From positions 256,001-320,000 of the forward strand of contig CAVWLW010000033.1 of NCBI GenBank assembly GCA_963755715.1: a DNA stretch of 64,000 nt, read 5' to 3'. How positions within the stretch are numbered: the first letter of the stretch is position 1; each line of letters starts with the position of its first letter. The stretch comes from an uncultured delta proteobacterium. GTDB taxonomy: Bacteria; Desulfobacterota; Binatia; UBA9968. Of the stretch, positions 11,490-37,585 are shown piece by piece. Under the pieces are notes generated by a model. That model worked only from the letters and a program-made list of their open reading frames with translations. It was not told the origin of the DNA and made no database searches. The translations under genes were made by a program, and so were the position numbers.

Positions 11490-11730
11490 TAGGGTTTCGG
11501 AGAGCTCATCAAAAAGCTAGCCACCAAAGCCGGTATCAAGCCCCAGACGTTACGGCGCAAGGGGCGAATGGCAAGGATCGTGGAGGCGCGGGATCGATTT
11601 ATACAGACAGCGGTGTTTGAAGAGGGGTACCTCGGCTCCGAAGGCGCCGGCTTTCTTGCCTGTCATCCATCCAACGTCAGTCGGGCGCTGCAGAAAGACG
11701 ATGGAGTTAATAGACTTAGGCAAGTCTGTC
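11490..11730 (+). mobile_element. 3' stub of a RAYT-like Y1 transposase plus right inverted end
   Basis: HTH-like tail LRRKGRMARIVEARDRFI..FLACHPSNVSRALQK, then AGTTAATAGACTTAGGCAAGTCTG, the reverse complement of the end at 18301..18324. Confidence 0.65.
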
Positions 11731-11744
11731 ATAGGACCAGTCGA

Positions 11745-11860
11745 CCATCCTCGGAATCGTAACACCGATCTGCTTCGTCGCTTTGAGATTGATGATGAAC
11801 TCGAATTTGATCGGCTGCTCGAAGGGAATATTAGCTGGTTTGATGCCGTTGAGATGTTGT
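11745..11860 (-). pseudogene. C-terminal remnant of an ABC_sub_bind-type binding protein
   Basis: LNGIKPANIPFEQPIKFEFIINLKATKQIGVTIP matches the conserved GxKPADLPVEQPTKFELVINLKTAK tail. Confidence 0.75.
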
Positions 11861-12956
11861 TTACTTAGGTAAAGGGCTTGTGCTGCGCAGTACCGGCAGC
11901 CCCATTTGCTGCCACAAAAGCATGCCGCCATGTAGGTTGGCTACCCGAGGAAAACCGGCATCGCGTAGGATCACCGTGGCTTGACCGGAACGCATGCCCG
12001 CGTGGCACACGGGGATCACGGGCTTGTCCTTGGGAATTTCCGCCAGGCGGTCTTTCAGTTCGTTTAACGGAACACATTGAGCCGTGGCGATGTGGCCCAG
12101 CTTGTCCTCCAGTTCTTCGGGTTGGCGCACGTCGAGCACGTGGACTTCAGCGAGATGCTCGGCGACCCACTCCGGGTCGATCTCGAGCAGCCCCGCGTAG
12201 CTCCGCCGCACCGGTCCCCAATCCGCGGGTCGCGGTAACTTCTCATCCTGCGGCTTGCCGCAACGCAGATTAGCCGGCACGGCAATAGCAATCTGCTTGG
12301 GGTGCGGAAGGTTCAGGTTTTCCATGAAGCCGACAAAGTCGCGCTCATCGGCATGACCGCCGATGCGCGGATTGTGCGCACGTTCCTCGCCGACCGAAGA
12401 CATGGTGCGGCCACTGTAATCGTGCCCAGGAAACAACAAGCAATCGTCCGGTAGACTGAAGATCTGCTCGGTGATGGAGCGGTAGAGCGTGCTGGCGTTG
12501 CCGTGCTGGAAATCGCAGCGGCCGGCGCCGCGGATCAGCAGACAGTCGCCGGTGAACGCCATGCGGTGGTCGTCGGTCACGTAGGTGACGCATCCGTCGG
12601 TGTGGCCGGGCGTAGCGCGCACTTCCAGATACCGTTCCCCGAAAACCACCCGGTCGCCATGATCGAAGCGCAGGTCCGCCCCCTGCGTCGCAGCGCAGCG
12701 CTTCGAAATACCGATACGGCAGCCGGTCGCCTGTTGCATCAACCACGCGCCGGTCACGTGGTCGGCGTGGCAGTGCGTGTCGAGCACGGCGAGCAGCTTC
12801 AAGCCGAGTTCTTCCACCAGCGCGCGATCGCGGAAGTGCTGCTCGAAGACTGTGTCGATGATCACGGCCTCAAGGCTTTGCGGGTCGCCCACCACGTAGG
12901 TATAGGTCGACGAAGCAAGCGTCGAACAGTTGGCGAAAAATAATGTTGCCGAACAT
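11861..12956 (-). CDS. Persulfide dioxygenase (ETHE1-like MBL) fused to rhodanese (N-terminal frameshift)
   Basis: IFRQLFD..SSTYTY, DTHCHADHVTG, TPGHTDGC, FTGDCLLIRG.GR.DFQ, PGHDY; rhodanese DVRQPEE..VCHAGMRS. Confidence 0.9.
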
Positions 12957-12983
12957 GGGTAGCTCCTAAAGTGTTCGAGTCCG

Positions 12984-13416
12984 TTATGCGATTCCACTCA
13001 GCTTGGTCAGCAGGATCCCAATCAACCACAGGAAACTGACGATCTGCACGAAAAAGAATCCGAAGCGTACGGATGCCACCGTGTTGGTCTGAACGAAGCA
13101 TACGTGCACCAGCGATTGCATGATGCGGGCAACCAGAACCGCGACTGCCAGCGCATTCACAAAGGCGCTGGCCACGTTGCCAACGTACAGCCCGAAAACA
13201 ATTGCGCCAAAAACCGGAAGGTTTTCGACGCAGTTCGCGTGGGCCCGCATCGCGCGCTATGTACCAATCGGCTCCCTCAATCTGATCAGCCCGGAAGCTG
13301 CGTATCGGCATACGTCCCGTCAGAATCCGACTCCAACGGTATACGCCAACCGTAGCGAGCAACAACAGTACGGTCCAAGCGGCGAATCCCACCAGCATCC
13401 CCACGGGTACCGTCAT
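12984..13416 (-). CDS. MAPEG family membrane protein (frameshifted)
   Basis: Hydrophobic N-terminal helix; RAMRAHANCVENLPVFGAIV; ARIMQSLVH. Confidence 0.85.
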
Positions 13417-13557
13417 GAGGTCGCCTCATCGTGTGACGCATAAGTGTTCAGTCTACTGCCGAATGTCCGGCCGTATTTCACGTTTTTATTTTCGATTCCA
13501 CAAGAACAAACCCGATTGAAATATTCTCCAGTTGCCAAGATCCTGTCAAGGATATTC

Positions 13558-13832
13558 AGCAGGCCGCTGAAAAAGACCCATATGTCGATTGCCCTGAGAA
13601 TCATCGAAGGCTGCGTCAATGGCCTCGAGCGTCAAGGATAAGGGATAAAGGATGAAAAATGGGATTAGTATTATCCTATGGCGTTTTCCTTTATCGTGCG
13701 ACTGTTTACACGCTGTCAAAAAGATCCAGACGCGATCACGGAAAAATCGACGAGCGCAGGCGTACATCGGCAGTACGTTGACTCAGGCGATTGAGCGCAA
13801 CGAAGCATATGGGACTATTTTCAGCAGCTGCT
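13558..13832. mobile_element. MITE-like element with ~27-bp terminal inverted repeats
   Basis: Left AGCAGGCCGCTGAAAAAGACCCATATG; right end reverse complement AGCAGCTGCTGAAAATAGTCCCATATG; no transposase ORF; overlaps the MFS stop. Confidence 0.7.
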
Positions 13833-15119
13833 CATGCGCTTAGCCAACTCGGCGGGCGAGGCCATGGCCAGGGACAGTGGCACCATGAGAGCGCTGATGG
13901 CGATGAGTCCCCAGATGGCGGCGGAGTAGTTCCCGTGCAGGTCGAAGATCAAGCCCATGACCAAGGGACCGACGACTCCCGCCGCAATCGGCCCTCCCTG
14001 CAGAAGGCCCAAGATTCTTCCGATAGCCCGGGTGCCGAACATGATGCTGCCGACGGCGCCGCGCATGGGAACAAGGCAGCCGAAGCCGACGCCGAAACCC
14101 AGCGCGAAAGGCAATGTGGCCCAGACCGTTTTGACTTCTGCAATCTGGAGGTACAACAGCGAAAGGGCCATCATCGCGGCGACGATTGCGAGGACGAGGC
14201 GATAGTCCATCCTGTCCAGCAGAAAGCCGCCGCCGATGCGTCCGATACCGCTGAGGACGAAGACAAAGGACATGACCACGGCCGCCCAGGCCGCGGTGAG
14301 TCCGATGTCTTGCTGGAAGTAGGGAATCATGTGGCCCTGGACGGCGGAGTTTACGGCGAAAGTCCCCGACAAGTAGCTCGTGAATAGCCAGAACTCCTTG
14401 GTACGGAACACTGCGTGGAGCGTCAGCCCGGCGTCCGTTCGGCGGCGCAATGGGCCGCTAAGGTGTTCCGTGGAGGCGCCATCCTCCGGTGGGTCGCCAT
14501 CGGGCCGCAAGCCGTAGGGTTCCGGCCGGTCGCGTACCAGCGTGCTGAGCAGCGTGACACCGACCAAGACCAAGGCACCGTAGCCGAAGAGGACGACGCG
14601 CCAGCCGTACGCCTCCTCGATCTGCGTGTTCAGTATGACGAGGGGCGAGCCGAAGATGGGACCCGTTACCGCAAGCCCCGTGGCCAGGCCGCGGTTGCGA
14701 CGAAACCACCTCGATATGATCACGGGCCAGGTGACCGCGTGGCTGACGCCGGATGCTCCCAGGGAAATGACCACGAAGCAGAGAAAAAACGTGACGATGC
14801 CGGTGATGAAGCCGAGGCCGATGAAGCCGACGCCCGAGATGACGGCGCTCCAGAAAATCAATTTACGCGCGCTGAAGCGATCCAGCAGGAAGCCGACAGC
14901 GGGACTGACAATGCCGGACTCCAACTGGCGCAGCGACATGGCGGCTGAAATAACCCAGCGGTCCCAGCCGAAGGCGCGTTCTATCGGAATGATGAGAACG
15001 CCGAAGCCCTGGAAATAGGCGGCGGAAAAAATCGTGTTGGTCACGACGCTCGCGACGACCATATACCAGCCGAAAAAAATCCGAGGCCTCCCTGATTTCT
15101 CAGTGTGGGTAGCGATCAT
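13821..15119 (-). CDS. MFS transporter (OFA/MCT-like)
   Basis: FFGWYMV start; GFLLDRFSARK and GFLLDRMDYR motif A copies; ISRWFRRNRGLATG; about 12 hydrophobic segments. Confidence 0.92.
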   Translation of the reverse strand: MIATHTEKSGRPRIFFGWYMVVASVVTNTIFSAAYFQGFGVLIIPIERAFGWDRWVISAAMSLRQLESGIVSPAVGFLLDRFSARKLIFWSAVISGVGFIGLGFITGIVTFFLCFVVISLGASGVSHAVTWPVIISRWFRRNRGLATGLAVTGPIFGSPLVILNTQIEEAYGWRVVLFGYGALVLVGVTLLSTLVRDRPEPYGLRPDGDPPEDGASTEHLSGPLRRRTDAGLTLHAVFRTKEFWLFTSYLSGTFAVNSAVQGHMIPYFQQDIGLTAAWAAVVMSFVFVLSGIGRIGGGFLLDRMDYRLVLAIVAAMMALSLLYLQIAEVKTVWATLPFALGFGVGFGCLVPMRGAVGSIMFGTRAIGRILGLLQGGPIAAGVVGPLVMGLIFDLHGNYSAAIWGLIAISALMVPLSLAMASPAELAKRMSSC

Positions 15120-15408
15120 TCCGGGCTTTCTGTGCAGATACGGCGGAGCATATTAATTTATGATAGTCATCGCGGCTGCATTGAACACAGGGGACGGGAG
15201 TGGGGTACGGGTAAGGTCGGACCGCGCTCTGCCTAAGTAACTCGGAAATTTTCCTTCCAGAAAATATGGTTGTTTTCCGATCTTAGCACATACACAGGGC
15301 ATTTCGCTTGCGGCGTATTGAGCTAGGCGAAGCGTCCGAACGCTTGACACGAGCCTCGCTGCCAAACTAACTTCCAGCGACGATAGCCAAACCACGAGGA
15401 GGTGGCGC

Positions 15409-16460: not shown

Positions 16461-16686
16461 GGCAAGCATCTGCCCAAGGAAAATACATCGAGCGCGGACA
16501 GATTTATTTCGGCTTCGAGGTCGATGAGAAACTTCTCCCGTTCGCAATCGAAGAGAGGCGAAGTGCTGGGTTTATGGCTCCGATATCCCGCAAGGAGACT
16601 GCATCTACGGCGCGGTCGATGTCTTCCTGAAGCGAGACGCGATGTCAGCGAGGAGAGCAAGCGAAAGCTGCTCATTGACAACACGC
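16461..16686 (+). pseudogene. Degenerate copy of the 3' end of amidohydrolase 10336..11469 (matches 11224..11450)
   Basis: Long identical stretch TACATCGAGCGCGGACAGATTTATTTCGGCTTCGAGGTCGATGAGAAACTTCTCCCGTTCGC; otherwise mostly synonymous changes plus indels. Confidence 0.92.
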
Positions 16687-16738: not shown

Positions 16739-17530
16739 ATGTGTATTGTCAGTACAGTCGGGCTCGGGGGGCGAAACGATTTGACCGATGTGACGGTATT
16801 TCAGATCCTTTTCAATCTAAATGTTCCTCGTTTCCCCGATCCAAAGCCCGAGAAGCTCGCTACCGATGGACGGATCGGTTCTAAGACGATTGACGCCATC
16901 AAGAACTTCGAGACTAAGGTCATGCGGCTCGCGAGCTCAGATTCCATTGTGGCGCCGGGCGATGCAACCGTGGCGGCCCTTCTGAATGGTCTGGTGCCGG
17001 GTCCATCGAGAGAAAAGCTCTCGGTTGTGATGCCGCGCGCGTTGCTGGACAAGATCGATCGTTATTACGATCCGCTCGTCGCAAGCATGAAGAAGTATCA
17101 CATCACGACCGACCTTCGAATGGCTCACTTTATTGCCCAGATCGGTCACGAAACCGCTTCTTTCCTCTGGGCCGAAGAGCTTGCCGATGGGTCTGCATAC
17201 GAAGGGAGACGGGATCTTGGAAATACGGATCCCGGTGACGGTAAACGTTTCAAGGGGCGCGGCCTGATCCAGCTGACCGGACGCGCGAATTACACGGAGT
17301 ACAAGAAAGTCGCGGGGTTTGACTGCGTGGCCGAACCAGGACGAGTCGCTTCGGACGCGTCCGTTGCTGTCGACGTTGCCTGCTGGTATTGGGACAGGCA
17401 CAAGCTAAATGATCTTGCCGACAGAGACGACGTGAAAGCGATAACCAAAGCGATTAACGGTGGTTTCAACGGACTCGATGATCGCGTCCAGTATCTCTTC
17501 AGAGCCAAGGCCGTGCTCGGCATCAAGTAG
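16739..17530 (+). CDS. Glycoside hydrolase family 19 (lysozyme/endolysin-like) with N-terminal peptidoglycan-binding-like domain
   Basis: STVGLGGRND..DV..FQILFN..DGRIG..TIDAI..F; AHFIAQIGHET..EELADGSAYEGRRDLGN..GDGKRFKGRGLIQLTGRANY; ITKAINGG.NGL.DR. Confidence 0.9.
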   Translation: MCIVSTVGLGGRNDLTDVTVFQILFNLNVPRFPDPKPEKLATDGRIGSKTIDAIKNFETKVMRLASSDSIVAPGDATVAALLNGLVPGPSREKLSVVMPRALLDKIDRYYDPLVASMKKYHITTDLRMAHFIAQIGHETASFLWAEELADGSAYEGRRDLGNTDPGDGKRFKGRGLIQLTGRANYTEYKKVAGFDCVAEPGRVASDASVAVDVACWYWDRHKLNDLADRDDVKAITKAINGGFNGLDDRVQYLFRAKAVLGIK

Positions 17531-17531
17531 A

Positions 17532-18230
17532 ATGTACCGGCCCTGGGTAGCGCTTGCCGCCGCGACATGCTGCCTCCTTCTTGGCGCATGCCGCGGCAAA
17601 GAAGACAGTGTTTCGAGCTCTTCGCCGTCCAGCCAGGCGGCAGGGACCAAAACAAAAGCGGCAAACGCCACGACGTTCCGCCTTCGCATCCATCCCACGC
17701 TCCCCGAATATTCATTCACGTTGGTGAGTGACCGATCCAGCGACAACAGCCAAACGTTGCAGGTGAAAAGAATCGAGATCCGGCGCGGAGGGGAAACTGA
17801 ACCTTTTCAGATCATTGAAGGACTTGACGCCGCCACGCCACTACAGCTGGTCCCGCCGCTTTCTATGGTCGATATGAATTTTGATGGTTACGGCGACATA
17901 CGTCTGATCGAGCTGCAGCCCGCCGGACCGAATGTTCCCTACCTCAACTGGTTGTTTGACCCAGCATCGGGCCGCTTTGTTGAAAGTCGCGCGCTCAACG
18001 AGATCACCTCGCCGCAATTCGATGCCGCTACCCGAGAGATTCGATCGGAATGGCGTGACGGCCCCACGCGCTACGGAACCGACATATACGTTTATAAGCA
18101 GGGCGAGCCGGTACTCGTGCGCAAGGAATCAAAAGAATACCGACAACCGGGCGTCTACACCTTGCGAGTCTCACAGTTGGTTGATGGCGCCTGGAAAACC
18201 GTCGAGCAACGCGAAGTGCGGGAGCCTTGA
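17532..18230 (+). CDS. Lipoprotein, XAC2610-like putative hydrolase-immunity protein
   Basis: Starts 1 nt after the GH19 stop; lipobox LLGAC; DMNFDGYGDI Ca-loop-like motif; GPNVPY..WLFDP..GRF. Confidence 0.7.
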   Translation: MYRPWVALAAATCCLLLGACRGKEDSVSSSSPSSQAAGTKTKAANATTFRLRIHPTLPEYSFTLVSDRSSDNSQTLQVKRIEIRRGGETEPFQIIEGLDAATPLQLVPPLSMVDMNFDGYGDIRLIELQPAGPNVPYLNWLFDPASGRFVESRALNEITSPQFDAATREIRSEWRDGPTRYGTDIYVYKQGEPVLVRKESKEYRQPGVYTLRVSQLVDGAWKTVEQREVREP

Positions 18231-18290
18231 GGCGCTGCGACCGACGTAGCAGCGCATTATCCCGCCAGATGGTCAAGATTCATGTCGGAT

Positions 18291-18490
18291 AAATCGGTGT
18301 CAGACTTGCCTAAGTCTATTAACTTCTGGGGAAGACGATGCCGCGTCACCCGCGAGTTCATGCCGAAGGACTGATCTATCACGTGATGGCGCGGGGCAAT
18401 GACGGGCAGAAGATTTTTCTCAGCCAAAGCGACTATCAGGCATTAATCGAAGCCCTTCGGACCGTGCGTCGTCCTCGGGACAAGACGTAA
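18291..18490 (+). mobile_element. Left inverted end plus 5' stub of a RAYT-like Y1 transposase (copy 1)
   Basis: AAATCGGTGTCAGACTTGCCTAAGTCTATTAACT, then ATG 18338 MPRHPRVHAEGLIYHVMARGNDGQKIF..DY, a Y1_Tnp N-terminus truncated before the HUH motif. Confidence 0.85.
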
Positions 18491-18492
18491 AC

Positions 18493-18551
18493 GGGTCAAG
18501 TCCGCTGTTGCTAAAAACGTTAGGACAGAAAGCAAAAAGCGGACTTGCCCC
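18493..18551. repeat. REP-like long hairpin
   Basis: GGGTCAAGTCCGCTGTTGCT ... AGCAAAAAGCGGACTTGCCCC inverted arms. Confidence 0.65.
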
Positions 18552-18579
18552 CATTTCTGCCGCCTTTTCCCAACGGGCA

Positions 18580-24710: not shown

Positions 24711-25284
24711 AGATTTTCCCCTTCACCGGCCCTATATCCTATTCAGAAATTAGACACTGCAAAATCATCTGGTTTATAATCCGCAAGATGTCACACGTCC
24801 AATGTTTTTTTGGTGATATCATTCATAGATGTTTGACAAGACCTTCGAGGGAACAGGCTACTTTGTAATTGAAAGGCGGACGCGTACGCATAGGAGAAGC
24901 GGCTCTTGCCGAGAGCGCGTTGCCTTTTAGGAGCGTAGTTCATGAAGATCCACATTTCTCCACCGCAAGTTGCCATGCGGGTACCACTGCACGCAACATC
25001 TTCACAAGGTGCTGTAGACATGGAGCCGCGTCGCCAAGACTATGACCGGCTCGATCTGACCCGCCAGCGGAAGTTCCGCACGATCGGTCGGGGGAAAAGT
25101 GAGTCCGAGGTGGACGAAGCAGCAATCGCTCTAGTCGAGCTAAGCGTGCTGGTCTATGACGATATCGGCACTATCGGAAAGACGGCCGCAAAGCTCCGCG
25201 ATCCCCGCCTGGGATTGTTTGGAAAGAAAGGAAACCGCGACGCGGACCTGCAGTGGCTGGAAGCCGAGCGCGAAATCGGTGTCG

Positions 25285-25477
25285 AAATCGGTGTCAGACT
25301 TGCCTAAGTCTATTAACTTCTGGTAGGGAGAGACGATGCCGCGTCACCCGCGAGTTCATGCCGAAGGACTGCTCTATCACGTGAAGGCCCGTGGCAATGA
25401 CGGGCAGAAGATTTTTCTCAGCCAAAGCGACTATCAGGCCTTAATCGAAGCGCTTCGGACCGTGCGTCGTCCGCGGG
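25285..25477 (+). mobile_element. Left inverted end plus 5' stub of a RAYT-like Y1 transposase (copy 2)
   Basis: Near-identical to 18291..18479; homology ends at the same point (CGTCGTCC.CGGG). Confidence 0.85.
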
Positions 25478-28760: not shown

Positions 28761-28853
28761 CGAGGGTGAAGCCTTTTCTTCTCCGCCCTCTATCGCTATA
28801 GTTTGCCGAAATGCACCAGGAGCGCCGGACTTCACCTTTCACGGAGGAAAAGC

Positions 28854-29996
28854 ATGAAGCGAAGCACTCATCACATCCTCACCACGCACACCGGAAGCTT
28901 GCCTCGTCCCTCGGACTTGGTCGACATAGTGCTCCGCCAGGAGGCAAAGCAGCCGGTGGATGAAGAGGTTCTTGCCATGCGTGTCCGCTCTGCGGTCGCG
29001 GAAGTGGTGCTAAAACAGGCCGAGATCGGGATCACCTTCCTCAACGACGGCGAACAGGGCAAACCCGGTTACTCCACTTATATGAAAGACCGCCTCACCG
29101 GCTTTGAGGGTGAAAGTACGGCTGCCGCCGTGTCAGGCGAAGCCAAGGACTTTCCGGAGTACAGCGCGCGGCGCGCAGGAAGAGCCTCCCCCATGCGCCC
29201 AGCGTGCACCGGCCCCATCGCTTGGAAAAACCGGGACGCGGTGCGCAAAGACATTGAAAATCTTAAGGACGCCATCAAAGCAGTCAAAGCCGAAGAGGTA
29301 TTCATGACCGCCGCCTCGCCGGGCGTGGTGCCGCACTTCATGAAAGATCAATACTACGGCAGTGAAGAGAAATATTTATACGCCCTGGCGGACGCCTTGA
29401 AAGAAGAATATGACGCCATCCATCGCGCCGGCTTCGTGCTCCAGCTAGACTGCCCCGACTTGTGCATGAGCCGCCACAACCGATTTTCCGATCTGAGCAC
29501 AACGGAGTTCAAGAAGATCGCCGAGCTTCACGTGGCGGCCCTCAACCACGCCTTGCGAGACATTCCGGCTGATCGGGTGCGCCTGCACATGTGCTGGGGC
29601 AACTACGAAGGTCCACACCATCTGGATATCCCGCTTAGGGAAATCATCGACGTGGCGCTAAAGGCCAAAGTCGGCGCTCTCTCCTTCGAGGGCGCCAACC
29701 CCAGGCACGAGCACGAGTGGGTCGTCTTCAAGGAGGTTCACCTCCCTGATGGCATGGCCATCATTCCAGGTGTGATCGACTCCACGACCCATTTTATCGA
29801 GCATCCGGAACTTGTCGCGCAGCGTATTGTCCGCTACGCCGAGGTGGTGGGCCGCGAGAACGTCATCGCGGGCACAGACTGCGGCTTCGGCACCTTCGTG
29901 CGCGCAGAACCGACCATCGACCCGCGCATCGCGTGGGCCAAACTCAAGTCGCTGGCTGACGGCGCAGCCATCGCCTCAAAGCGACTTTGGAATTAG
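28854..29996 (+). CDS. Cobalamin-independent methionine synthase II-like (Meth_synt_2) Zn enzyme
   Basis: ILTTHTGSLPRP, NDGEQGK, LQLDCPDL, RLHMCWGNYEGPH, EGANPRHEHE, GTDCGF. Confidence 0.92.
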   Translation: MKRSTHHILTTHTGSLPRPSDLVDIVLRQEAKQPVDEEVLAMRVRSAVAEVVLKQAEIGITFLNDGEQGKPGYSTYMKDRLTGFEGESTAAAVSGEAKDFPEYSARRAGRASPMRPACTGPIAWKNRDAVRKDIENLKDAIKAVKAEEVFMTAASPGVVPHFMKDQYYGSEEKYLYALADALKEEYDAIHRAGFVLQLDCPDLCMSRHNRFSDLSTTEFKKIAELHVAALNHALRDIPADRVRLHMCWGNYEGPHHLDIPLREIIDVALKAKVGALSFEGANPRHEHEWVVFKEVHLPDGMAIIPGVIDSTTHFIEHPELVAQRIVRYAEVVGRENVIAGTDCGFGTFVRAEPTIDPRIAWAKLKSLADGAAIASKRLWN

Positions 29997-30021
29997 CGGT
30001 AATTCCGCCCGCGTGAATCAG

Positions 30022-30110
30022 GTTCAAAACCGTTCAAACTGTTCAACCGCTGTGCTCCGTTCAAAACGTTACATGAACATCGGTTCCAAAGGTTCCGTTG
30101 GTTCCAATCG
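30022..30110 (+). repeat. GTTCAA-periodic intergenic element
   Basis: GTTCAAAACCGTTCAAACTGTTCAACCGCTGTGCTCCGTTCAAAACGTT ... GTTCCAAAGGTTCCGTTGGTTCCAATCG. Confidence 0.7.
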
Positions 30111-30174
30111 CAACTGCTATGACGCCCGGAACGTGTGGCATTGCTCGCCTCGCCGCACGTGCTAAAGTCCGAGC

Positions 30175-30480
30175 GTGAACGCGCCCCGCGCGATCGTTTA
30201 TCGCGCGCTTCTCGATGCGCGCGCGGTCGTGAAGTGGAAGGTGCCGAGCGGCATGACCTGCCACGTGCATGCGTTCGACGCCCGCGAGGGCGGCTCGTTC
30301 CGGATCTCGCTTACGTACGCCGCGCCAACCGGGACCGGCAAAACGACTGCGCACACCGACACGTACCATGGCCGCTTTGTGAAGCTTGTGACGAACGAGC
30401 AGGTCGTCGAAGTGGTCGAGTTCGAGACGACAGATCCCGCGTTGCGTGGCGAGATGACGATCACGATCTCGCTGGCCGAT
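30175..30480 (+). pseudogene. SRPBCC (START-like) protein fragment
   Basis: VNAPRAIVYRALLD..W.VP.GM..FDAREGGSFRISLTY..YHGRFV.LV.NEQVVEV.EF; truncated where it meets the hydrolase remnant. Confidence 0.75.
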
Positions 30481-31110
30481 CTGCTTCCGTTCGATCTCCT
30501 CATAGGGCGGATAGCCCGGCGCGAGGCCTAGACCATGACGATAGGAATGGATCACCACGTCGACATAATCGGGGTTGTCGAACGCCATCGCCGGGCGCTC
30601 GAATGTCGGCCTCATCCGGGCGACGCCGCGCCGATCGGCCGCCAGTCCTACCTGGCCGCGCTCTGTCTGAAAATAGTACTGGTACCAAAGGCCGGAGTCG
30701 ATCTTCGCCGGGATTGGCGTCATCGCATGGGCAAATATCCTGGATGAGTTAGCTGTTGACGGAAATCAAGCCGTGCAGCGCTCCGGCCACAGCGCCGCCG
30801 CGACGCAGGCCGCGCGCCCGCCCCAATTGAAACCGGCTAACACAGCGATCGGGATTTTAAGGGCATACATCAAGGCGATCACGTCCGCGCCGATCGCGCC
30901 ATGCTGACCCGCTCGCGGTATAGCGGCGTCGAGAAAGCCTGATCCTGCCTGTCTTATCGAATCCATCCCGATCACGACGCTTGGTGAGACGGGCTGATTC
31001 GGCATTGCGGCCGTCTTAGCCTTCGCGCGTTCAAAGAGTCCGACCCCGTCGCCGTTAGCCCGGTCGTGCCGACGAAGGCATTCTGCAGGAAGCGCCTGCG
31101 TTTCGCATCC
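30481..31110 (-). pseudogene. Alpha/beta (epoxide-hydrolase-like) hydrolase remnant with a Tat-like N-terminus
   Basis: Fragments RRRFLQ; AIGADVIALM.AL.IP.AVLAGFNWGGRAACVAAALWPERC; LWYQYYFQTERG; FDNPDYVDVVIHSYRH; with deletions. Confidence 0.75.
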
Positions 31111-31182
31111 GTAAGGTCGGAAATTAGATTCTGCTAGTGCAGTCCGTTGGCGGCGATTTTCAGATGCAGTGAATCCGACGCT

Positions 31183-31449
31183 CTAGGCATCGCCTGCGGA
31201 GGAACGAGCGGCCAGCGCTGGCTTTTCGCCGCGGCCCTTTCGGGGATCACGAATTCGACTTGCACCACGTCGGTGAGGCTCTTTCCACCGCCGAGCCATG
31301 TATCGGGCGTATTCCTCCGCCATTGCCATATTAGGGCATGACATTGTTGTCCTAAAAAACCTCATTGCCCCATTTTTCAGAATGATTTCGACTATGGGTG
31401 ATGATTCGTGCCTGACTGTGATCTCAATATTGGATTCTCGATACGTCAT
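31183..31449 (-). CDS. Small hypothetical protein
   Basis: ATG preceded by GGAGG; AT-richer than surroundings; no recognisable motif. Confidence 0.4.
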   Translation of the reverse strand: MTYRESNIEITVRHESSPIVEIILKNGAMRFFRTTMSCPNMAMAEEYARYMARRWKEPHRRGASRIRDPRKGRGEKPALAARSSAGDA

Positions 31450-31778
31450 TGTCTAATGCCTCCGGGCGTACTGTTGGTGACACCTTTAACGTGCACCTAT
31501 ACCAAGCGGGCCGCTATTTGCCGTTCAATATTAGACAGTGTTGAAAAATAAATTTGGGCAGAAACCTCACACCGTCCGCACCGTTGTTGTGGAGCGAGCG
31601 GCCAGCAAAGACAAGAAAATTTTTGAGCAGATCAACCCCATCGACACGACCCATTTCCAGTTTTAACTGAGTCCTTCTCGATGCAAGGATTTTCTATCCG
31701 CGCGGGCGTTTGACAGGAGTTAGAATGTTAGCCATCTTATAGGAGATAACTTACCTAACGCCCCATGGAGAGGAATCT

Positions 31779-32684
31779 ATGAAGACACTGCGATTGGAAA
31801 CCACTGCGCCGTTTCAAGGCTTGGCCGAGCTCGTGGCCTATGACGAGGGTCTGTTCGAGAAGGAAGGCATCCAGATCGAGTGGATGGATCGTGAGAAGGG
31901 CGTCGACAAAAGTCCGCAGCTGCATATCACGGATCATAAGGAAGCATCGCGCTACACAAGCCACGGTAAGATGATGGAGCAAGGTCAGGCGGATCTCTAC
32001 AACGCTTGTGAATGGGGTAATTTCTCGCGGGTCGAAACCACCAACGTCGGCAGCCGGCAGGTCGGCCGTCGTTCCATGGTGAATTTTGCCGGGATCGTCG
32101 TCCGCGCAGATTCACCGGTGCAGGTGCCTCAGCAATTCGCCAACGTGCAGATCGGCGTCCCTTTTTATAGCGGTACGCACTATCTGTGCCTGCAGATGCT
32201 GGAAGGCTTCGTGCCGCGCGAGCTGATCAAGATCGGCCGCGTGCCGAACGGCTCCAATTACCGTTTCAAGATGCTCATGGATAAGACGATCGAAGCGACG
32301 ACCCTGACCGAACCGTATATTTCGTTGGCTGAGAAAATGGGCTGTCGTGTCGTCATCTCGGCTTTCCACCACGGCACCGACGTGGCGTCCGATCGCGTGG
32401 ATGGCGAAACTTACGAGGCCTTCAACCGTGCGATTCGCGAAGCCGTCCGGCGCATCATGGCGAACAAGCGCGCCTATATGCACTACTTCATCGACTACTA
32501 TCGCGATCGCGATCCGCAGATCAGTCAGCTCACCATCGACGATCTGCGCGAGAGCCGCCTCTATCTGGTCGATCCGGCGCCGATCCCGGCCGATGAACTC
32601 CAACGCACCTACGACTGGATGAAGAGCTGGGATTTCCTCGAGACCGCCCCCTGCGCGGCCAATCTCGTCAACATGAGCGCGTAG
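31779..32684 (+). CDS. Periplasmic-binding-fold (NMT1-like) protein with no signal peptide
   Basis: LVAYDEGLFEKEGIQIEW; IGVPFYSGTHY; TLTEPYISLAEK.G; hydrophilic N-terminus. Confidence 0.8.
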   Translation: MKTLRLETTAPFQGLAELVAYDEGLFEKEGIQIEWMDREKGVDKSPQLHITDHKEASRYTSHGKMMEQGQADLYNACEWGNFSRVETTNVGSRQVGRRSMVNFAGIVVRADSPVQVPQQFANVQIGVPFYSGTHYLCLQMLEGFVPRELIKIGRVPNGSNYRFKMLMDKTIEATTLTEPYISLAEKMGCRVVISAFHHGTDVASDRVDGETYEAFNRAIREAVRRIMANKRAYMHYFIDYYRDRDPQISQLTIDDLRESRLYLVDPAPIPADELQRTYDWMKSWDFLETAPCAANLVNMSA

Positions 32685-32832
32685 AAGCACAGCTGCGAAT
32701 GGACGCCTGGAAGCAGGCTTCCCACGTAATGGAGGTGTTGGAGCACAACATCAGAATTCGGTGTCTGGATTAGACTACAGGGTCATGATCAAAATTCATG
32801 AATTTACAAGCTTCATACCATTACTTTTCGTC

Positions 32833-32848
32833 TGGCACATCGTTTGTC
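32833..32848 (+). promoter_or_regulatory. Possible sigma-54 promoter (imperfect -12)
   Basis: TGGCACA-TCGT-TTGT upstream of 32890. Confidence 0.4.
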
Positions 32849-32889
32849 TCCTCGGAGAATCCGCGATCTGACTCAAAAAAGGAGATCCT

Positions 32890-33171
32890 ATGATCACCCG
32901 TAAACTTGTAAATTTTACCGCCATAATCACTCTGGCTGCACTAATTGGAAGTTGTAGCCTTTGGAGGAAGGAAACCAAAGTGACTATGGCTGATCTGCCG
33001 GCTCCAGTCAGGACTGCTGTGCAAAAGACAACGGCCGGTTCGACAGTTACACAAATTGAAAAAATCGAGTCCGGCGGAAAAGTGACCTATGAAGTTGAAT
33101 ATCGTAAGGACGGCCAGGATCACGAAACCTACTTCGCCGAAGACGGCACAATCGTCAAAGGTGTGGAGTAA
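32890..33171 (+). CDS. Small PepSY-like/BLIP-like lipoprotein
   Basis: RBS AAAGGAG; lipobox LIGSC; DLPAPVRTAV..IEK..GKVTYEVEY.KDG..E.YFAEDG. Confidence 0.8.
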   Translation: MITRKLVNFTAIITLAALIGSCSLWRKETKVTMADLPAPVRTAVQKTTAGSTVTQIEKIESGGKVTYEVEYRKDGQDHETYFAEDGTIVKGVE

Positions 33172-33190
33172 GCCTCTCGGCGAACACCCA

Positions 33191-33273
33191 GTCGAGCCTG
33201 GTCCGATCCCGGCCGATGAACTCCAGCGCACCTACGACTGGATGAAGAGCTGGGATTTCCTCGAGACTGCCCC
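33191..33273 (+). pseudogene. Copy of the 3' end of gene 31779..32684 (matches 32568..32650)
   Basis: CCGATCCCGGCCGATGAACTCCA.CGCACCTACGACTGGATGAAGAGCTGGGATTTCCTCGAGAC.GCCCC. Confidence 0.92.
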
Positions 33274-33712
33274 AGGCTTTCTATATCAGTGAGCCGGCTG
33301 TCATTGAACGCTGGCGCTTCGCCTTATTATTTGAAACCGTTCTTAACGGTACGCCCGACTGGCGGCCACGGCATACGTGTGCGGAAGCTATCCTCCTGGA
33401 TCAAGTTGGCAAGGCCGTGGAATCGACTTGATATTTGCGGAGTGTGCCGGCGCTGCCTCAAACGAAGTCGCGGAAACGAGGTAAGGCGAGCATGATGTCC
33501 ACATGACCGTGCCAGTCCCCCGGCACAGCACTTGTCGCGACCATGAAAAAGCACCCCTTTGACTCACGTGCGCCATTCCAACTTTAAAATGATATGTGAT
33601 GAGCGCTGTCAGACGTTGCTTATTGCTTGTCACCTCTGGCAAACATCCGAAGAGCACTGCAAATCGAAACGCCAAAGTGAAACTATTTTCACTTGAAAAC
33701 CCCTGCCTAATT

Positions 33713-34750
33713 ATGCGCAGGTGTTACTCGGGCGTCTTTTTTTTGATCTTGCTCATCGCCTGTGCGGGTGTAGGAAACGAGCCGATCCCCGGGCAACCCG
33801 CGCATCACGTGGTGGGCGGTTTTCGCAATACCAATTCGGATTTCCGCCGACCTTCCGCATGGACGCGCTGGAGCTTTGTTGTGCGCCGACTGTGGACGAC
33901 TTCCGTCTCACCGCGGACCTTCGATGTGCCGCGCGTCTCCAATGACGGCGCCCTCCTCCGTGCCGGCAGTGTGAATCCGAGTATTACCTGGATTGGCCAC
34001 TCGACGCTGTTGGTACAGATCAACGGCGTGAATATTCTAACCGACCCGCAGTGGAGCGAACGAGCAAGTCCGGTGTCTTGGGCCGGCCCGCGCCGTCTAA
34101 GCCCTCCCGGGCTCGCATTCGAAGATTTGCCGCGGATCGATGTTGTCTTGATCTCTCACGATCACTACGATCATCTGGATCTAAACACCGTAAAGCGCCT
34201 TGCCGCGGCGCGCGATCCGCTCTTTTTGGTTCCGCTCGGTCTCAAGGCGTGGTTTGCCGAGAACGGAATGACACGGGTCGAAGAGATGGACTGGTGGCAG
34301 GAGCGCGAATATGGCGCCGTGAAATTCGTCTGCGCGCCGGCTCAGCATTTTTCCCAACGAACATTGGCGGACGCGAATGAACGACTCTGGGCATCGTGGG
34401 CGGTGTTGAGCCCCGAGCGACGGCTTTATTTCTCGGGTGATACCGGTTACTTCGCGGGCTTCGTGGAAGCCGGCCAGCGGCTCGGTCCGTTCGACGTCGC
34501 GGCGCTCGCCATCGGCGCCTATCTACCTCCAGAAATCATGAAAGCCGTGCACCTCACACCGGAAGAAGCGGTGCAGGCGTTCATCGACCTCAATGCCCGT
34601 GTGATCCTCGGTATCCACTGGGGCACCTTCGATCTCGCGGAGGAGCCGCTCGACGAGCCACCCCGACGTTTACTAGCCGATATCCGCCGCCGCAACATCG
34701 ATTCGTCACGCGCCTGGATCTTCAAGCTCGGCGAAACGCGCCCCTGGTAA
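33713..34750 (+). CDS. MBL-fold hydrolase, NAPE-PLD/RomA-like, probable lipoprotein
   Basis: TWIGHST, LTDPQWSERAS, ISHDHYDHLD, PAQHFS.R, FSGDTGY, IGAY.P, IHWGTF.L; LLIAC. Confidence 0.9.
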   Translation: MRRCYSGVFFLILLIACAGVGNEPIPGQPAHHVVGGFRNTNSDFRRPSAWTRWSFVVRRLWTTSVSPRTFDVPRVSNDGALLRAGSVNPSITWIGHSTLLVQINGVNILTDPQWSERASPVSWAGPRRLSPPGLAFEDLPRIDVVLISHDHYDHLDLNTVKRLAAARDPLFLVPLGLKAWFAENGMTRVEEMDWWQEREYGAVKFVCAPAQHFSQRTLADANERLWASWAVLSPERRLYFSGDTGYFAGFVEAGQRLGPFDVAALAIGAYLPPEIMKAVHLTPEEAVQAFIDLNARVILGIHWGTFDLAEEPLDEPPRRLLADIRRRNIDSSRAWIFKLGETRPW

Positions 34751-34860
34751 AATCAATTCAGAAAGTTCAACGAACAGCTGACCTGCTGGCCGGAAAGCGA
34801 ATGCCGATTACACGAATTGACCCGAGACGATAACGCCTCAGTGCGGCGCTTTCCTGCAAC

Positions 34861-36086
34861 TCAATTCCACAGCTCGCGGCTCGCCAATCGGGCGCCCTCC
34901 GCCAGCGCGTAGAGTTTTGCAAAGGCGAGACTGGCATCGGGAAGGTGGCGCAAACCGCAATCGGTGCAGGCAATGACGTTTTCTTTGCCGACGAGTTTGG
35001 CAAAGCGGACGATGCGTTCGGCCACCAGCTCTGGATGTTCGATGAAATAGGTGGTGTCGTCGATCAGCCCCGGGAAGAGAATTTTTCCGTCCGGGAAGTT
35101 TTCATCTCTTGCCAAATCTTCCATTCATGGCCATGACGCGGATTGGCCGACTCGATAGTGATTCCCGTGACGTTGGCTTTAAGCACGATATCGATGATAT
35201 CATTCAGCGCAATATCGCGGTGGTGCGGTCCTTCGTAATTGCCCCAGCAAATATGGATGCGCACTTGTTCGGGCGGAATCGTCTTGAGCGCATAATTGAG
35301 AGATTCGACATGCTGTTCGATGACTTTGCGAAATTGTTTGACGCTCAGGTCGGCGTAATCCGTGTTGGCGCCGGAAGCTAGGTCCGGGCAATCGAGTTGC
35401 AAGACGAAACCCGCTGCGACGATCATTTGATATTCCCGGCGCATGACATCGGCGACTGCCTGCAGATAAGTTTCTTCGTCGGAATAATATTCGTTCCTGA
35501 AAAAACGCGCGAAACAACCTGGTGACAAGGCCGACATGAAAACCTCGTGCGGATGCTCCGTTGCTGCCGCAGCCGCAAGCCGGGCAATGTCGGTTTCCAC
35601 GGCGGCGAAGTCCCGCCAGTTTAAGGGACCAGCGCAGACGTAAGCCATGCCGCCGTTGTCGTGAGCGTCGCTCTGGCTGCGGGCAAGGTCATGAAACTCG
35701 GCAATGTCGGTGCGGAAGTGCCGTGGCGCGCCTTCGATATCGCTCCGCGCTAATCCGGTTTCGCGCGGACGAATAATTCCATGAGCAACGCTCCAGGGCG
35801 CGGCGCCGTGTGCCCGGGAGCGAGCCATCCTTTCGAGACCGCCAACGCGGTGCACGACATAGTCATTCCACGAGGTTTTACTGAGCTCGCCGTCGTCGAC
35901 GATATCGACGCCGACTTCGATTTGCTGCCGCACCACTGCGCCGATCCCGCTTGTCAGTGCCGCGTTATGCGCCGCCTGATCGTAGGTTTCGCCGTGGCGC
36001 TTTGCCGCGAGACCGCGACGAACCAACTCCGGTAATGGCAGGCTGCCTGTGTGGGTGGTGAGAATGCGGTCGGTGCTGCGCTTCAA
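34861..36086 (-). CDS. Meth_synt_2-like Zn enzyme (frameshift near 35100)
   Basis: ILTTHTGSLP, RIHICWGNYEGPHH, ESANPRHGHEW; C-terminus ENVIACTDCGL lies in ORF 34861..35124. Confidence 0.88.
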
Positions 36087-36134
36087 TGTAACTTTCTCCT
36101 CGACGCTCTTGCCGGCTTCGCGCGCTCTTTCAGA

Positions 36135-37322
36135 TCAACGCCACAGCTCGCGGGTCGCCAATCGGGCGCCTTCCGCCAACGCGGCAAACTTGAGCCAGGC
36201 GACGCTGGGATGAGTGTCGTTGAACCGCAGGGCGGAGGCGGCAAAGCCGCAGTCGGCTCCGGCGATGACGTTCTCGCGCCCGACGAGTTTTGCGAATCGC
36301 ACGATCCGTTCGGCGACCAACTCCGGGTGCTCCACCAAATTCGTCGTGTGGCTGATCACGCCGGGTATGAGAATCTTTCCGGCGGGAAGCTTGACCCGCT
36401 CGAAGACATGGTATTCGTGTTCGTGCCGCGGGTTCGCCGCTTCGAATGAATAGGCGCCGGCGTTGATCTTCAACATGATGTCGACGATGTCCTTCAAATC
36501 CATTTCGTGGATGCGCGGACCGACATCGATGCTGTAGCAGGTGTGGAAGCGGATTTTCTCGGGCGGGATGCCGCGGATCGAGTCATTGATCGCGTCGACG
36601 CGCTCGGCTGCCCATTTCCTGCAGTCGGTAACGCTGAGCTCCGGGTGCATCATGTAATAGGTGACCAGGCGCGGATCGTCGATCTGGAGAATAAACCCGG
36701 CGTCGACAATCGCCTTGTACTCTTCGCGCATGGCATTCGATATCGCCTGCTCGTATTCCTCGTGGGTCCGGTAGTATTCGTTGGCAAAAGTAGCCGCGAC
36801 GTAAGAGGACGCGATCGCGGGAATGAAGACGTCTTCGTGGGTCAAGCCTTTAGTTGCCGCCTTGAGGTTGGCAATATCCGCCTGGACCGCCTCGTGACCT
36901 CTATAGCTGACCGGTCCGGTGCAAGTATCAACGCTGTGACCCCGCCCTCCGCTTCGACCGCCAAACGGTTCGGCGATACGCTCGGACCATGCATAGTACT
37001 CGGGGAAGGAGAGATACTCTCGACCGGCTGCGCGCGGTCTCACGGTCCCCGGAGCGGCGGGCTTGCGCTCGAAGCCGTTGAATCGTTCGATAATGTAGCT
37101 GAAGAAGCCCGATTTGCCCTGCTCGCCATCGGTGATGATATCGATGCCTGTTTCGACCTGTTTCCGAACAACCTCCGCAACAGACTCGCGCACAACCCGT
37201 GCGAGTTCGTCGCGGTCGTAGGGTTGTCCTTCCTCTCTCAGTCGAAGAAGCGGTGTCAAGGAATCGGACCTGGCCAAGCTGCCCACATGGGTCGTGAGGA
37301 TTCTTTCCGTGCTTTGCTTCAT
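36135..37322 (-). CDS. Meth_synt_2-like Zn enzyme
   Basis: ILTTHVGSLAR, TDGEQGK, LQIDDP, RFHTCY, EAANPRHEHE, GADCGF. Confidence 0.92.
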   Translation of the reverse strand: MKQSTERILTTHVGSLARSDSLTPLLRLREEGQPYDRDELARVVRESVAEVVRKQVETGIDIITDGEQGKSGFFSYIIERFNGFERKPAAPGTVRPRAAGREYLSFPEYYAWSERIAEPFGGRSGGRGHSVDTCTGPVSYRGHEAVQADIANLKAATKGLTHEDVFIPAIASSYVAATFANEYYRTHEEYEQAISNAMREEYKAIVDAGFILQIDDPRLVTYYMMHPELSVTDCRKWAAERVDAINDSIRGIPPEKIRFHTCYSIDVGPRIHEMDLKDIVDIMLKINAGAYSFEAANPRHEHEYHVFERVKLPAGKILIPGVISHTTNLVEHPELVAERIVRFAKLVGRENVIAGADCGFAASALRFNDTHPSVAWLKFAALAEGARLATRELWR

Positions 37323-37439
37323 AATATCCTTCTATTGATGAATTTTTTGCCTTTGGCGGCTCCGGCCGGCGGAAATTTAAAACCCCTTTGCCAAGCGACG
37401 TTCGAGACTTTCCCCAAGCAAGAGCTCAGGGAATACGTA

Positions 37440-37525
37440 AATTGACCCGGCACCGTAACCCTTGAGCGCGGCGCGCTCCAGCAACTCAATTCCACAGCTC
37501 GTCAGTCGCCAATCGGGCGCCTTCC
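37440..37525 (-). pseudogene. Copy of the Meth_synt_2 3' end plus 3' flank (matches 34815..34900)
   Basis: AATTGACCCG...GCGGCGC..TCC.GCAACTCAATTCCACAGCTCG....TCGCCAATCGGGCGCC.TCC. Confidence 0.85.
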
Positions 37526-37527
37526 AT

Positions 37528-37585
37528 TCAAATGTAAGCCGGGCGCTGCAGAAGAGTTAGTAGACTTAGGCAAGTCCGGCGCCGA
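37528..37585 (+). mobile_element. Last codons of the RAYT-like transposase plus right inverted end
   Basis: SNVSRALQKS* then TAGACTTAGGCAAGTCCGGCGCCGA, same tail as 11670..11730. Confidence 0.75.

What the first reader, a model, noticed from the sequence alone, without database searches (positions are those of the whole stretch)
11490..37585. Split RAYT-like (HUH Y1) element: hairpin inverted ends with transposase stubs enclosing kilobases of cargo
Seen: the left end AATCGGTGTCAGACTTGCCTAAGTCTATTAACT plus the first ~46 codons (MPRHPRVHAEG..YHV.ARGN) occurs at 18291 and 25285, both diverging at the same position. The reverse-complement right end preceded by the last codons (SNVSRALQK) occurs at 11705 and 37555. 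Each end contains the hairpin AGACTT-GCCT-AAGTCT. Established: RAYT genes are flanked by inverted REPs and are generally regarded as domesticated. Inference: left stub 25285 (or 18291) and right stub 37585 could delimit a 12.3 (or 19.3) kb non-autonomous cargo element mobilised in trans, which would be an unusual role for this family.
Basis: partly seen in the sequence, partly recalled or inferred. Interest (0 to 1): 0.75.

Follow-up and report, generated by a model that had tools for sequence, protein, structure and literature searches.

The report
Scattered ends of a tyrosine transposon
The four repeats are broken, unpaired ends of a small jumping gene of an already named but untested kind; they do not bracket one large cargo element, but single ends often mark places where neighbouring DNA was duplicated, swapped or copied.

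Summary
The four ends and stubs are real. They are pieces of one 930-bp element: a 287-aa HUH/Y1 transposase gene between 28-bp terminal inverted repeats (TIRs). Eight full-length copies were found elsewhere, five of them 92-97% identical and all in unrelated flanks. This is a TIRtron (TIRYT, TnpA-Y1 subclass 2.1), not a REP-associated domesticated RAYT.

The proposed 12.3 or 19.3 kb cargo element is not supported. A congener keeps the right end with both flanks but has no left end. The interval is a mosaic with other neighbours in relatives. No skipping joint was seen in four metagenomes. Inward-facing ends over 1.1 kb apart are 3 of 27 neighbour pairs.

The data show one-ended activity instead. 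The outer edge carries short tandem duplications at 47 of 177 sites (0.4% expected). Ends that share inner non-transposase DNA sit on unrelated outer flanks in 14 of 18 groups, always breaking within 19 nt of the TIR. Nick, extend and rejoin by an enzyme acting in trans fits this; host recombination between repeats is not excluded.

This scan had already noted TIRtron debris in this genome and stuttered ends in other genomes.

The parts
11496..11704 (+). R1 stub: last ~67 codons of a TIRYT transposase gene (C-terminal HTH-like part), joined on its inner side about 29 nt after an amidohydrolase stop codon
   Evidence: tblastn aa 217-283 of P0001, 67%; alignment; closest to copy L089, at most 76% nt to any full-length copy
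11705..11732 (-). R1 terminal inverted repeat (28 bp); its outer 10 nt (11733-11742) are shared with a copy that has a different outer flank in G017 and L240
18291..18296 (+). 6-nt flank shared with L2 and with other ends of this sub-lineage
18297..18324 (+). L1 terminal inverted repeat
18338..18479 (+). L1 stub: codons 1-45 of the transposase plus ~9 nt of non-transposase DNA shared with L2; lacks the HuH and Y motifs
18493..18551 (.). 59-bp two-ended mini-element of a second TIR family, directly inside L1
   Evidence: the same repeat flanks the Y1 gene remnant at G000:C51:110049-111068
25272..25290 (+). Stutter at L2: a 12-nt unit (7 nt flank plus 5 nt TIR prefix) followed by the 7-nt flank again; the 12 nt are absent from a contig of run X1
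25291..25318 (+). L2 terminal inverted repeat
25336..25477 (+). L2 stub: codons 1-45 of the transposase; 25273-25744 (end, stub and ~270 nt of host DNA) recurs at 95% in L229 with other DNA on both sides
37431..37521 (-). 3' remnant of a third MetE-like (Meth_synt_2) paralogue, cut off by the R2 stub
   Evidence: repeat families D4 and D7; translation; Pfam on the paralogues; junction
37522..37554 (+). R2 stub: last ~12 codons (HSNVSRALQKS; stop codon inside the TIR)
   Evidence: 92% over 49 nt to L192 and L094
37555..37582 (-). R2 terminal inverted repeat; present at the same site, with both flanks, in congener G027 (96%)

Best explanation
The four repeats are unpaired remnants of a 930-bp TIRtron, lying in a shuffled accessory-gene island. 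R1, R2 and one left-end ancestor (later copied to give L1 and L2) are separate relics, not the two ends of one cargo unit. How it works, step by step. (1) SHOWN by comparison: the full element occurs as a near-identical unit at unrelated sites, without target duplication. (2) SHOWN: the outer edge of the TIR, 0-19 nt into the flank, is where DNA is gained, lost and exchanged. (3) INFERRED from HUH chemistry: the enzyme nicks one strand near the TIR edge and holds the 5' end on its tyrosine. If host polymerase extends the free 3'-OH a few bases and the end is rejoined, a 7-21 nt tandem unit (flank plus TIR prefix) is added: the stutter. If the held end is joined to a 3'-OH elsewhere, the end and whatever lies inside it get a new outer flank, or a short copy is laid down. 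(4) INFERRED: incomplete copying or deletion leaves stubs of many lengths. Stubs have no catalytic core, so any later change needs an enzyme in trans or host recombination between the repeats.
For: Family: NCBIfam REP_Tyr_transpos above cut-off; NHFH and YIHLNP motifs; 39% over 271 aa to G000:C23, which hits Bac_DnaA_C at E 6.8e-7. Mobility: 8 full-length copies with both ends, 0 of 28 flank pairs alike, five copies 91.6-97.4% identical, immediate direct repeat 0-1 nt. Scattering: 15 motif matches in G000, only one short two-ended copy and no intact gene of this subfamily; 190 distinct ends, 40 left, 68 right, 82 TIR-only or unassigned, with stubs of many lengths. Not one unit: G027 has R2 with both flanks and no left end in the 29 kb to its contig end. 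In G027, window 18565-24835 is collinear backbone on another contig with no motif. Stutter: 47 of 177 sites, against 0.36% of 5000 random genome positions, 0.11% of shuffled flanks and 2 of 166 inner-side controls; 29 of 177 are perfect adjacent tandem units. Edge exchange: of 65 pairs sharing at least 40 nt of inner DNA beyond the stub, 53 have unrelated outer flanks, all breaking within 19 nt of the TIR; 1 differs by a local indel; 11 are the same site; 14 of 18 groups contain a swap. A nick-extend-rejoin model is published for TnpA-REP and BIMEs (PMC3333891, passages).
Against: No biochemistry exists for this subclass in the papers I found. No clean filled/empty allele pair was found for a full-length copy in 3 tries: for L033, host homology stops 14 nt outside one end and does not resume on the other side. 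Crossover between dispersed TIR and stub copies would also swap outer flanks at the TIR. Several groups (0, 2, 4, 6, 14) share only 50-100 nt, which may be ends of unsampled subfamilies or mini-elements rather than host DNA, and pairs within a group are not independent. The stutter did not reveal which strand is nicked (p = 0.58). The 12-nt difference in run X1 may be loss by slippage rather than gain. L1, L2 and R2 are all compatible with one sub-lineage (L192 type), so common origin from one copy is not excluded by sequence alone.
Confidence: 0.72

Rival explanations
1. One reading: L2 (or L1) and R2 bound a 12.3 (or 19.3) kb non-autonomous cargo element moved in trans as one piece.
For: L2 and R2 face inward and carry the start and end of one gene type. 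Both fit the L192-type sub-lineage (85-87% and 92%). Two-ended derivatives exist, but only of 76-400 nt. The ORF outside L2 has no match in 30 congeners, so an empty site could not be examined there.
Against: R2 sits at the same site with the same inner and outer neighbours in G027, with no left end in the 29 kb inside it. Interval blocks have other neighbours in relatives: in G019, 25538-27576 is on contig C16, while 31694-37322 is on C27 among genes that lie outside the interval here. In 4 runs from 4 studies all 30 of 30 bins are covered, and none of the 15 joints shown (7 not shown) links a left end to R2 (contigs show presence, not absence). Inward pairs over 1.1 kb are 3 of 27, co-oriented 18, outward 6. 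A second inward pair (G018, 3.6 kb) fell apart on testing: its left end plus 1.45 kb recurs in G003 and G004, and the 1.45 kb without the end in G020, none with the right end. ssDNA gaps at the fork average 1.5-2 kb (PMC5027513, passage).
Confidence: 0.05
2. Inert debris: independent insertions decayed by host deletions. The ends are dead, and later flank swaps and local copies come from RecA-type or slippage recombination between the 28-240 nt repeats, with the stutter made only at the time of insertion.
For: No intact gene of this subfamily was found in G000 (genome 93.6% complete). R2 predates the split from G027. Repeat-mediated crossover predicts breaks at the TIR. The island is shuffled at many junctions that have no end.
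Against: Copies with new DNA on both sides need two crossovers each: G000:C36:104000 vs C54:38408 (-10 to +200 nt, with ~125 nt of host DNA), L1 vs L2, and the tandem copies in L199 and L212. Small gains and losses directly outside an end at otherwise identical sites fit edge activity better: 173 nt at C41:4330 vs L079, about 20 nt at L1 vs L272, 12 nt at L2 vs run X1.
Confidence: 0.2
3. The ends act as integron-like sites that stack gene cassettes in co-oriented arrays.
For: Co-oriented neighbours are the commonest class, 18 of 27, mostly 0.2-8 kb apart. In G027:C39 an extra end plus 505 nt lies directly outside an older end.
Against: 18 of 27 does not differ from one half (p = 0.12). The DNA between L1 and L2 is collinear backbone in G027. 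Junctions cut genes rather than frame them.
Confidence: 0.03

Closest known systems
TIRYT / TIRtron (Di Nocera et al. 2013, PMC3733652) = TnpA-Y1 subclass 2.1 (Quentin et al. 2018, PMC6006769) = RAYT group 1 (Bertels et al. 2017, PMC5581495)
   Same: Y1 core with NH[VYF]H and Y[IV]HLNP, long C-terminal extension, gene framed by TIRs close to its ends, dispersed TIR copies, no canonical REP family.
   Different: The TIR starts GTGTCAGA rather than GGGGWSAS. The passages I read do not describe near-identical copies at unrelated sites, stuttered ends or one-ended flank exchange. Figure 9 and the supplements of PMC3733652 were not seen and may list this TIR type.
REPtron: TnpA-REP (RAYT groups 2 and 3) with REP/BIME (PMC3333891, PMC8266576)
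   Same: HUH nick and strand transfer. A published model has the 3'-OH extended and rejoined to add repeat units, and proposes capture of flanking DNA. On the opposite strand the TIR has GTAG at its inner foot in 140 of 190 ends.
   Different: REPtrons are described as not moving as units and REPs number in the hundreds. Here the gene plus its ends occurs as a unit at unrelated sites, ends number 15 in this genome, and the hairpin is dispensable.
IS91 / ISCR one-ended transposition (PMC13181058)
   Same: HUH enzyme, no target duplication, DNA next to a single end is carried along.
   Different: IS91 has two unlike ends (oriIS, terIS) and a different transposase. Here the two ends are inverted copies and both show the stutter (20 right, 13 left, 14 unassigned).
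IS200/IS605 (subclass 1.1) and their non-autonomous derivatives
   Same: Y1_Tnp core, no target duplication, short two-ended derivatives.
   Different: Y-motif is YxxxNP not YxxxQ; ends are inverted repeats rather than unlike subterminal hairpins; no fixed target tetranucleotide in the outer flank; no tnpB in the 930-bp unit.

Membership tests
TIRYT / TnpA-Y1 subclass 2.1 | Y1 core with HuH motif NH[VYF]H and Y motif Y[IV]HLNP | tested here: met
   NHFH and YIHLNP in the full-length relatives; PF01797 and NF047646 above cut-off. The window stubs themselves lack both motifs.
TIRYT / TnpA-Y1 subclass 2.1 | C-terminal extension with a helix-turn-helix (Bac_DnaA_C, HTH_23 or HTH_28 type) | tested here: inconclusive
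   A ~150-aa extension is present. Direct Pfam HTH hits are weak (E 0.02-0.2). It aligns along its length with G000:C23, which hits Bac_DnaA_C at E 6.8e-7, just under the cut-off. No structure was predicted.
TIRtron | Gene flanked by terminal inverted repeats close to the coding sequence | tested here: met
   8 full-length copies of 922-931 bp with a 28-bp TIR at both ends.
TIRtron | GGGGWSAS motif (reported for the majority of TIRs, not all) | tested here: not met
   The consensus starts GTGTCAGA. PMC3733652 states that other TIRs are unrelated to this motif, so it is not required for membership.
REPtron (RAYT groups 2 and 3) | Abundant genome-wide REP family with GTAG foot and conserved hairpin | tested here: not met
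   15 copies in 7.4 Mb; hairpin broken in 79 of 190 ends (for metagenome hits the partner base was fixed by my search pattern, so compensation could not show there); GTAG is ATAG in 3 of 4 window ends.
REPtron (RAYT groups 2 and 3) | Single-copy gene that does not move as a unit | tested here: not met
   Five copies at 91.6-97.4% in unrelated flanks; several broken copies in one genome.
Two-ended non-autonomous cargo transposon | End-bounded interval present or absent, or relocated, as one unit | tested here: not met
IS200/IS605 | YxxxQ motif, unlike ends, fixed target tetranucleotide | tested here: not met
   YIHLNP; inverted ends; no fixed flank bases apart from 60% C at -2.
HUH transposases in general | ssDNA nicking and strand transfer at the element ends | not testable with these tools
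   Needs purified protein.

The most novel reading that the evidence does not exclude
TIRYT enzymes are mobile, and their orphaned ends stay usable in trans as one-ended nick-and-rejoin sites. They add stutters, trim or swap the outer flank, and copy or carry 0.1-1.4 kb of inner host DNA (gene pieces, sometimes a whole gene) to new places. This widespread, biochemically unstudied group of RAYT-like proteins would then be a gene-shuffling engine of accessory islands, not a domesticated housekeeping-like nuclease.
Probability: 0.4. Interest if true: 0.65.

Novelty: new member of a known kind. Interest (0 to 1): 0.4.

Why it matters
The window itself is transposon debris of a named kind. The comparative set bears on an open question, though. 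Group 1 RAYTs have been drawn as single-copy genes unable to duplicate (10.1101/2021.07.10.451892, figure legend), although they were also noted as the most IS-like RAYT group (PMC5581495). Here a family has near-identical full-length copies at unrelated sites, a sharp 28-bp end, and footprints that place the active edge within about 20 nt. That gives a defined protein and substrate for a first biochemical test. It may also bear on the unexplained link between subclass 2.1 fragments and diversified prochlorosin genes (10.1101/2020.03.09.984088).

Tried and rejected
Viral contigs: 0 matches to the end pattern.

Empty-site search for full-length copies: L089 flank, 0 of 31 genomes; L088 flank gave only paralogue-level hits that start about 30 nt out, and I did not inspect them further; L033 flank matched in G014, G022 and G009 on one side only. 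Empty site for L2: the outer ORF has no match in 30 congeners.

Target-site duplication: none, 0-1 nt in 8 of 8 copies.

Nick polarity from stutter arrays: flank-length and TIR-prefix-length ranges do not differ (11 greater, 4 equal, 10 less of 25 arrays; p = 0.58), so the strand is not assigned.

Orientation bias: 18 of 27 co-oriented, p = 0.12. 13 of 40 rows were dropped first: 2 pairs under 100 nt apart and 11 inward pairs under 1.1 kb that are single elements or mini-elements.

the joint 18284-25294 (run X1, 26-nt side) is read as mis-mapping between the L1 and L2 repeats, and 30814-37732 (run X8, 21-nt side) as too short to trust. X6 and X15 are uninformative for the stutter.

Moved cassette reading of R1 plus the amidohydrolase piece: the duplicate 3' piece exists without a stub in other relatives (G014, G015, G025, G029), and sequence identity did not tell donor from recipient (92.7 vs 93.1%).

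C41:4330 vs L079 first looked like a relocation but is the same site with a local 173-nt difference.

PDB sequence search gave only a weak hit to E. coli TnpA-REP (4ER8, E 0.07). No structure, complex or large protein-database search was run.
Full report
Observation. The 16-nt core occurs four times in the window: 11712-, 18302+, 25296+ and 37562-. Shuffles give a mean of 0.17, and 0 of 100 reach four. I call the ends R1, L1, L2 and R2. L1 and L2 are 94% identical over 193 nt and encode codons 1-45 of a Y1 transposase. R1 carries about 67 final codons and R2 about 12. The genes around them are accessory metabolism genes: amidohydrolases, NMT1-type binding proteins, MetE-like paralogues, metallo-hydrolase folds and transporters (35 ORFs scanned). 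Records that hold the closest transposases are titled Candidatus Binatia or deltaproteobacterial MAGs, and the stretch is held by soil and rhizosphere runs, so a soil Binatia-like host is an inference.

One gene, one element. G007:C182 (L033) holds an intact 287-aa gene whose start matches L1 and L2 and whose end matches R1 and R2, between inverted 28-bp repeats. The own genome has a 400-bp internally deleted copy with both ends at C50:3721-4117. The protein passes PF01797 and NCBIfam REP_Tyr_transpos and has NHFH and YIHLNP. It aligns at 39% over 271 aa with G000:C23, which carries a Bac_DnaA_C-like tail. These are the marks of subclass 2.1 in PMC6006769 (abstract and sections 11, 12, 15 part 1 of 2, and 31 read). 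That paper equates the subclass with the TIRYT/TIRtrons of PMC3733652 (passages read, figure not seen) and says it has no REPs. The TIR here starts GTGTCAGA, not GGGGWSAS. The hairpin is weak and is broken in 79 of 190 ends. In the five most alike full-length copies the left end has it and the right end does not.

The full element appears mobile. Eight full-length copies with both ends were found (L033, L087-L090, L092, L192, L235). None of 28 pairs shares flanking DNA, five are 91.6-97.4% identical, and there is no target duplication. I found no clean filled/empty pair in three tries, so mobility rests on near-identical copies at unrelated sites. In print, tnpA-REP genes are said to show no evidence of mobility (PMC8266576, passage) and group 1 is drawn as unable to duplicate (10.1101/2021.07.10.451892, legend). 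PMC5581495 does note that group 1 has the highest duplicate share among true RAYT groups, 6.3% (passages).

Ends are scattered and mostly single. G000 has 15 motif matches at up to 2 mismatches and no intact gene of this subfamily (genome 93.6% complete). 16 of 61 related genomes have the end, and the reversed control pattern has none. Pooled and deduplicated, there are 190 ends: 40 left, 68 right and 82 TIR-only or unassigned, with stubs from about 40 nt to full length. Among 27 neighbour pairs (13 of 40 dropped as single elements or under 100 nt apart), 18 are co-oriented, 6 face outward and 3 face inward.

The 12.3 and 19.3 kb intervals are not units. Congener G027 has R2 at the same site, with 37428-38758 at 96% and inner blocks back to 31633. 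It has no left end in the 29 kb from R2 to its contig end; the only other motif there is a second right end. In the same genome, 18565-24835 lies on another contig, collinear with window 4745-10148 and 44499-58462, with no motif and no transposase trace. In G019 the 25538-27576 block is on C16, while 31694-37322 lies on C27 mixed with genes from 10327-15187 and 39188-41953. Contigs of four runs from four studies cover 30 of 30 bins of 18001-38000. None of the 15 listed joints (7 not shown) links a left end to R2; contigs cannot show absence. A second inward pair, 3.6 kb in G018, also failed: its left end plus 1.45 kb recurs in G003 and G004, and the 1.45 kb without the end in G020, none with the right end. 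For a single-strand pathway, fork gaps of 1.5-2 kb (PMC5027513, passage) also make 12-19 kb unlikely; that step is inference. Against this reading: L1, L2 and R2 all fit one sub-lineage, and no empty site for L2 could be examined.

Footprint 1, stutter. The flank next to the TIR often recurs just outside it, followed by a piece of the TIR start. With a combined match of at least 9 nt this holds at 47 of 177 distinct sites. Controls give 0.36% of 5000 random genome positions, 0.11% of shuffled flanks and 2 of 166 inner-side positions. 29 of 177 are perfect adjacent tandem units of 7-21 nt, L2 among them. A contig of run X1, 99.8% identical apart from the gap, lacks the 12-nt unit at L2. The stutter thus differs between close strains at a stub that has no catalytic core; gain or loss cannot be told.

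Footprint 2, exchange at the outer edge. Of 65 pairs of ends that share at least 40 nt of inner DNA beyond the stub, 53 have unrelated outer flanks, and in all 53 the match stops within 19 nt of the TIR. One pair differs by a local indel and 11 are the same site. 14 of 18 groups contain a swap (pairs within a group are not independent, and five groups share only 50-100 nt that may not be host DNA). Cases with host genes follow. Window 25273-25744 (L2, stub and the start of an NMT1 gene) recurs in L229 between other DNA. Window 11253-11742 (amidohydrolase 3' piece, R1 and 10 nt) lies next to 15315 in G017. G000:C36:104000 and C54:38408 share -10 to +200 nt, including an NMT1 gene end. C41:4330 and L237 share at least 718 nt, and C59:49098 and G027:C39 share kilobases inside and break at -7. 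Where only the outer side differs, a moved module cannot be told from a replaced flank.

Mechanism. HUH enzymes leave a 5'-phosphotyrosine and a free 3'-OH that can prime synthesis or attack the link (PMC8266576). PMC3333891 proposes nick, extension and rejoining to add BIME units, and capture of flanking DNA (passages). Applied here, a nick near the TIR edge, a short extension and rejoining gives the stutter. Rejoining to a distant 3'-OH gives a new outer flank or a one-ended copy, as in IS91 one-ended transposition (PMC13181058, passages). These steps are inferred. The nicked strand could not be assigned. A possible trans source in G000 is the intact C23 enzyme, whose TIR shares GTCAGACTT and CTAC; this is untested. 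Host recombination between the repeats explains the flank swaps equally well but fits two-sided copies and local trims less well.

Novelty. TIRYT appears in 2 listed papers (3 counting versions). Searches found no report of TIRtron transposition, stuttered ends or one-ended exchange; the library lacks most subscription journals, and I read no supplements. 10.1101/2020.03.09.984088 (part 1 of 2 read) reports subclass 2.1 genes and C-terminal fragments beside diversified peptide genes, with causation left open. Earlier notes of this scan had already called TIRtron debris in this genome and stuttered ends in others. One of them led me to PMC3333891; my nick-extend-rejoin idea was noted before I read that paper, though the same reading stands in that note.

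Verdict. Observation confirmed. Interpretation partly supported: one gene family, but the wrong subfamily and no paired cargo unit. New member of a known kind, interest 0.4.

Noticed in passing
window 18493-18551; G000:C51:110049-111068; G000:C62:2725-3053; G000:C41:100974-101033: A second TIR family (GGGTCAAGTCCGCT; 15 matches in G000) with its own Y1 gene remnant, an internally deleted copy and 59-bp mini-elements. One sits just inside L1, and another lies about 30 nt after the point where L229 leaves the L2 sequence, so different TIRYT families land next to each other.
   Followed up: partly
L049 and L050 (G012:C197, G025:C36), at the position of window 37587: Downstream of the same alpha/beta hydrolase gene where R2 sits, these genomes carry GGGGACAC-type repeats that look like ends of a third TIR family (family assignment by eye): repeated landing at one spot.
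   Followed up: no
window 34806-37525: Three tandem 3' ends of MetE-like (Meth_synt_2) paralogues. The middle gene is split into two frames (35064-36086 and 34861-35124), and a 2-nt indel at 35102 varies in runs X1 and X6.
   Followed up: partly
window 16461-16684: Duplicate of the 3' end of the amidohydrolase at 10324-11469. A similar orphan piece lies beside the MFS gene or its neighbour in G014, G015, G017, G025 and G029, so it predates the stub.
   Followed up: partly
window 24942-25307: 121-aa ORF whose last codons come from the stutter and the TIR. No Pfam hit and no DNA match in 30 congeners. Its tail recalls DUF2934 proteins (recalled, not tested).
   Followed up: partly
window 11743-11850: Short fragment resembling the C-terminus of ABC substrate-binding proteins (recalled motif, not tested), cut by the outer edge of R1. 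G029 has it continuing, without an end.
   Followed up: partly
window 38577-38921 and 32568-33273: A 157-nt tandem duplicate (92%) upstream of the hydrolase gene, and an 83-nt duplicate of a gene end (93%).
   Followed up: no
window 30022-30071, 48478-48527, 51432-51481: A separate dispersed repeat rich in GTTC units, also seen in congener loci.
   Followed up: no
window 16739-17530: GH19-family (chitinase/lysozyme-like) gene. The only congener match listed over it is 68% in G008 (63 matches not listed).
   Followed up: no
L186, L046, L256, G000:C50:3721-4117: Two-ended mini-derivatives of 76-400 nt (MITE-like) of the same element.
   Followed up: partly
L220:374-1008 and about 5387-6011: An inverted duplication of about 620 nt that includes the TIR, 4.4 kb apart. 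Real inversion or assembly artefact is not resolved.
   Followed up: no
G000:C23:58587-59584: Intact 308-aa TIRYT with a GGGGTCAG-type TIR that shares a core with the window's TIR. On the opposite strand both families can read GTAG at the inner foot, the REP guide tetranucleotide.
   Followed up: partly
G000:C36:113686-113978: A 5' gene fragment (aa 1-85, no left TIR match) closed directly by an inward-facing TIR.
   Followed up: no
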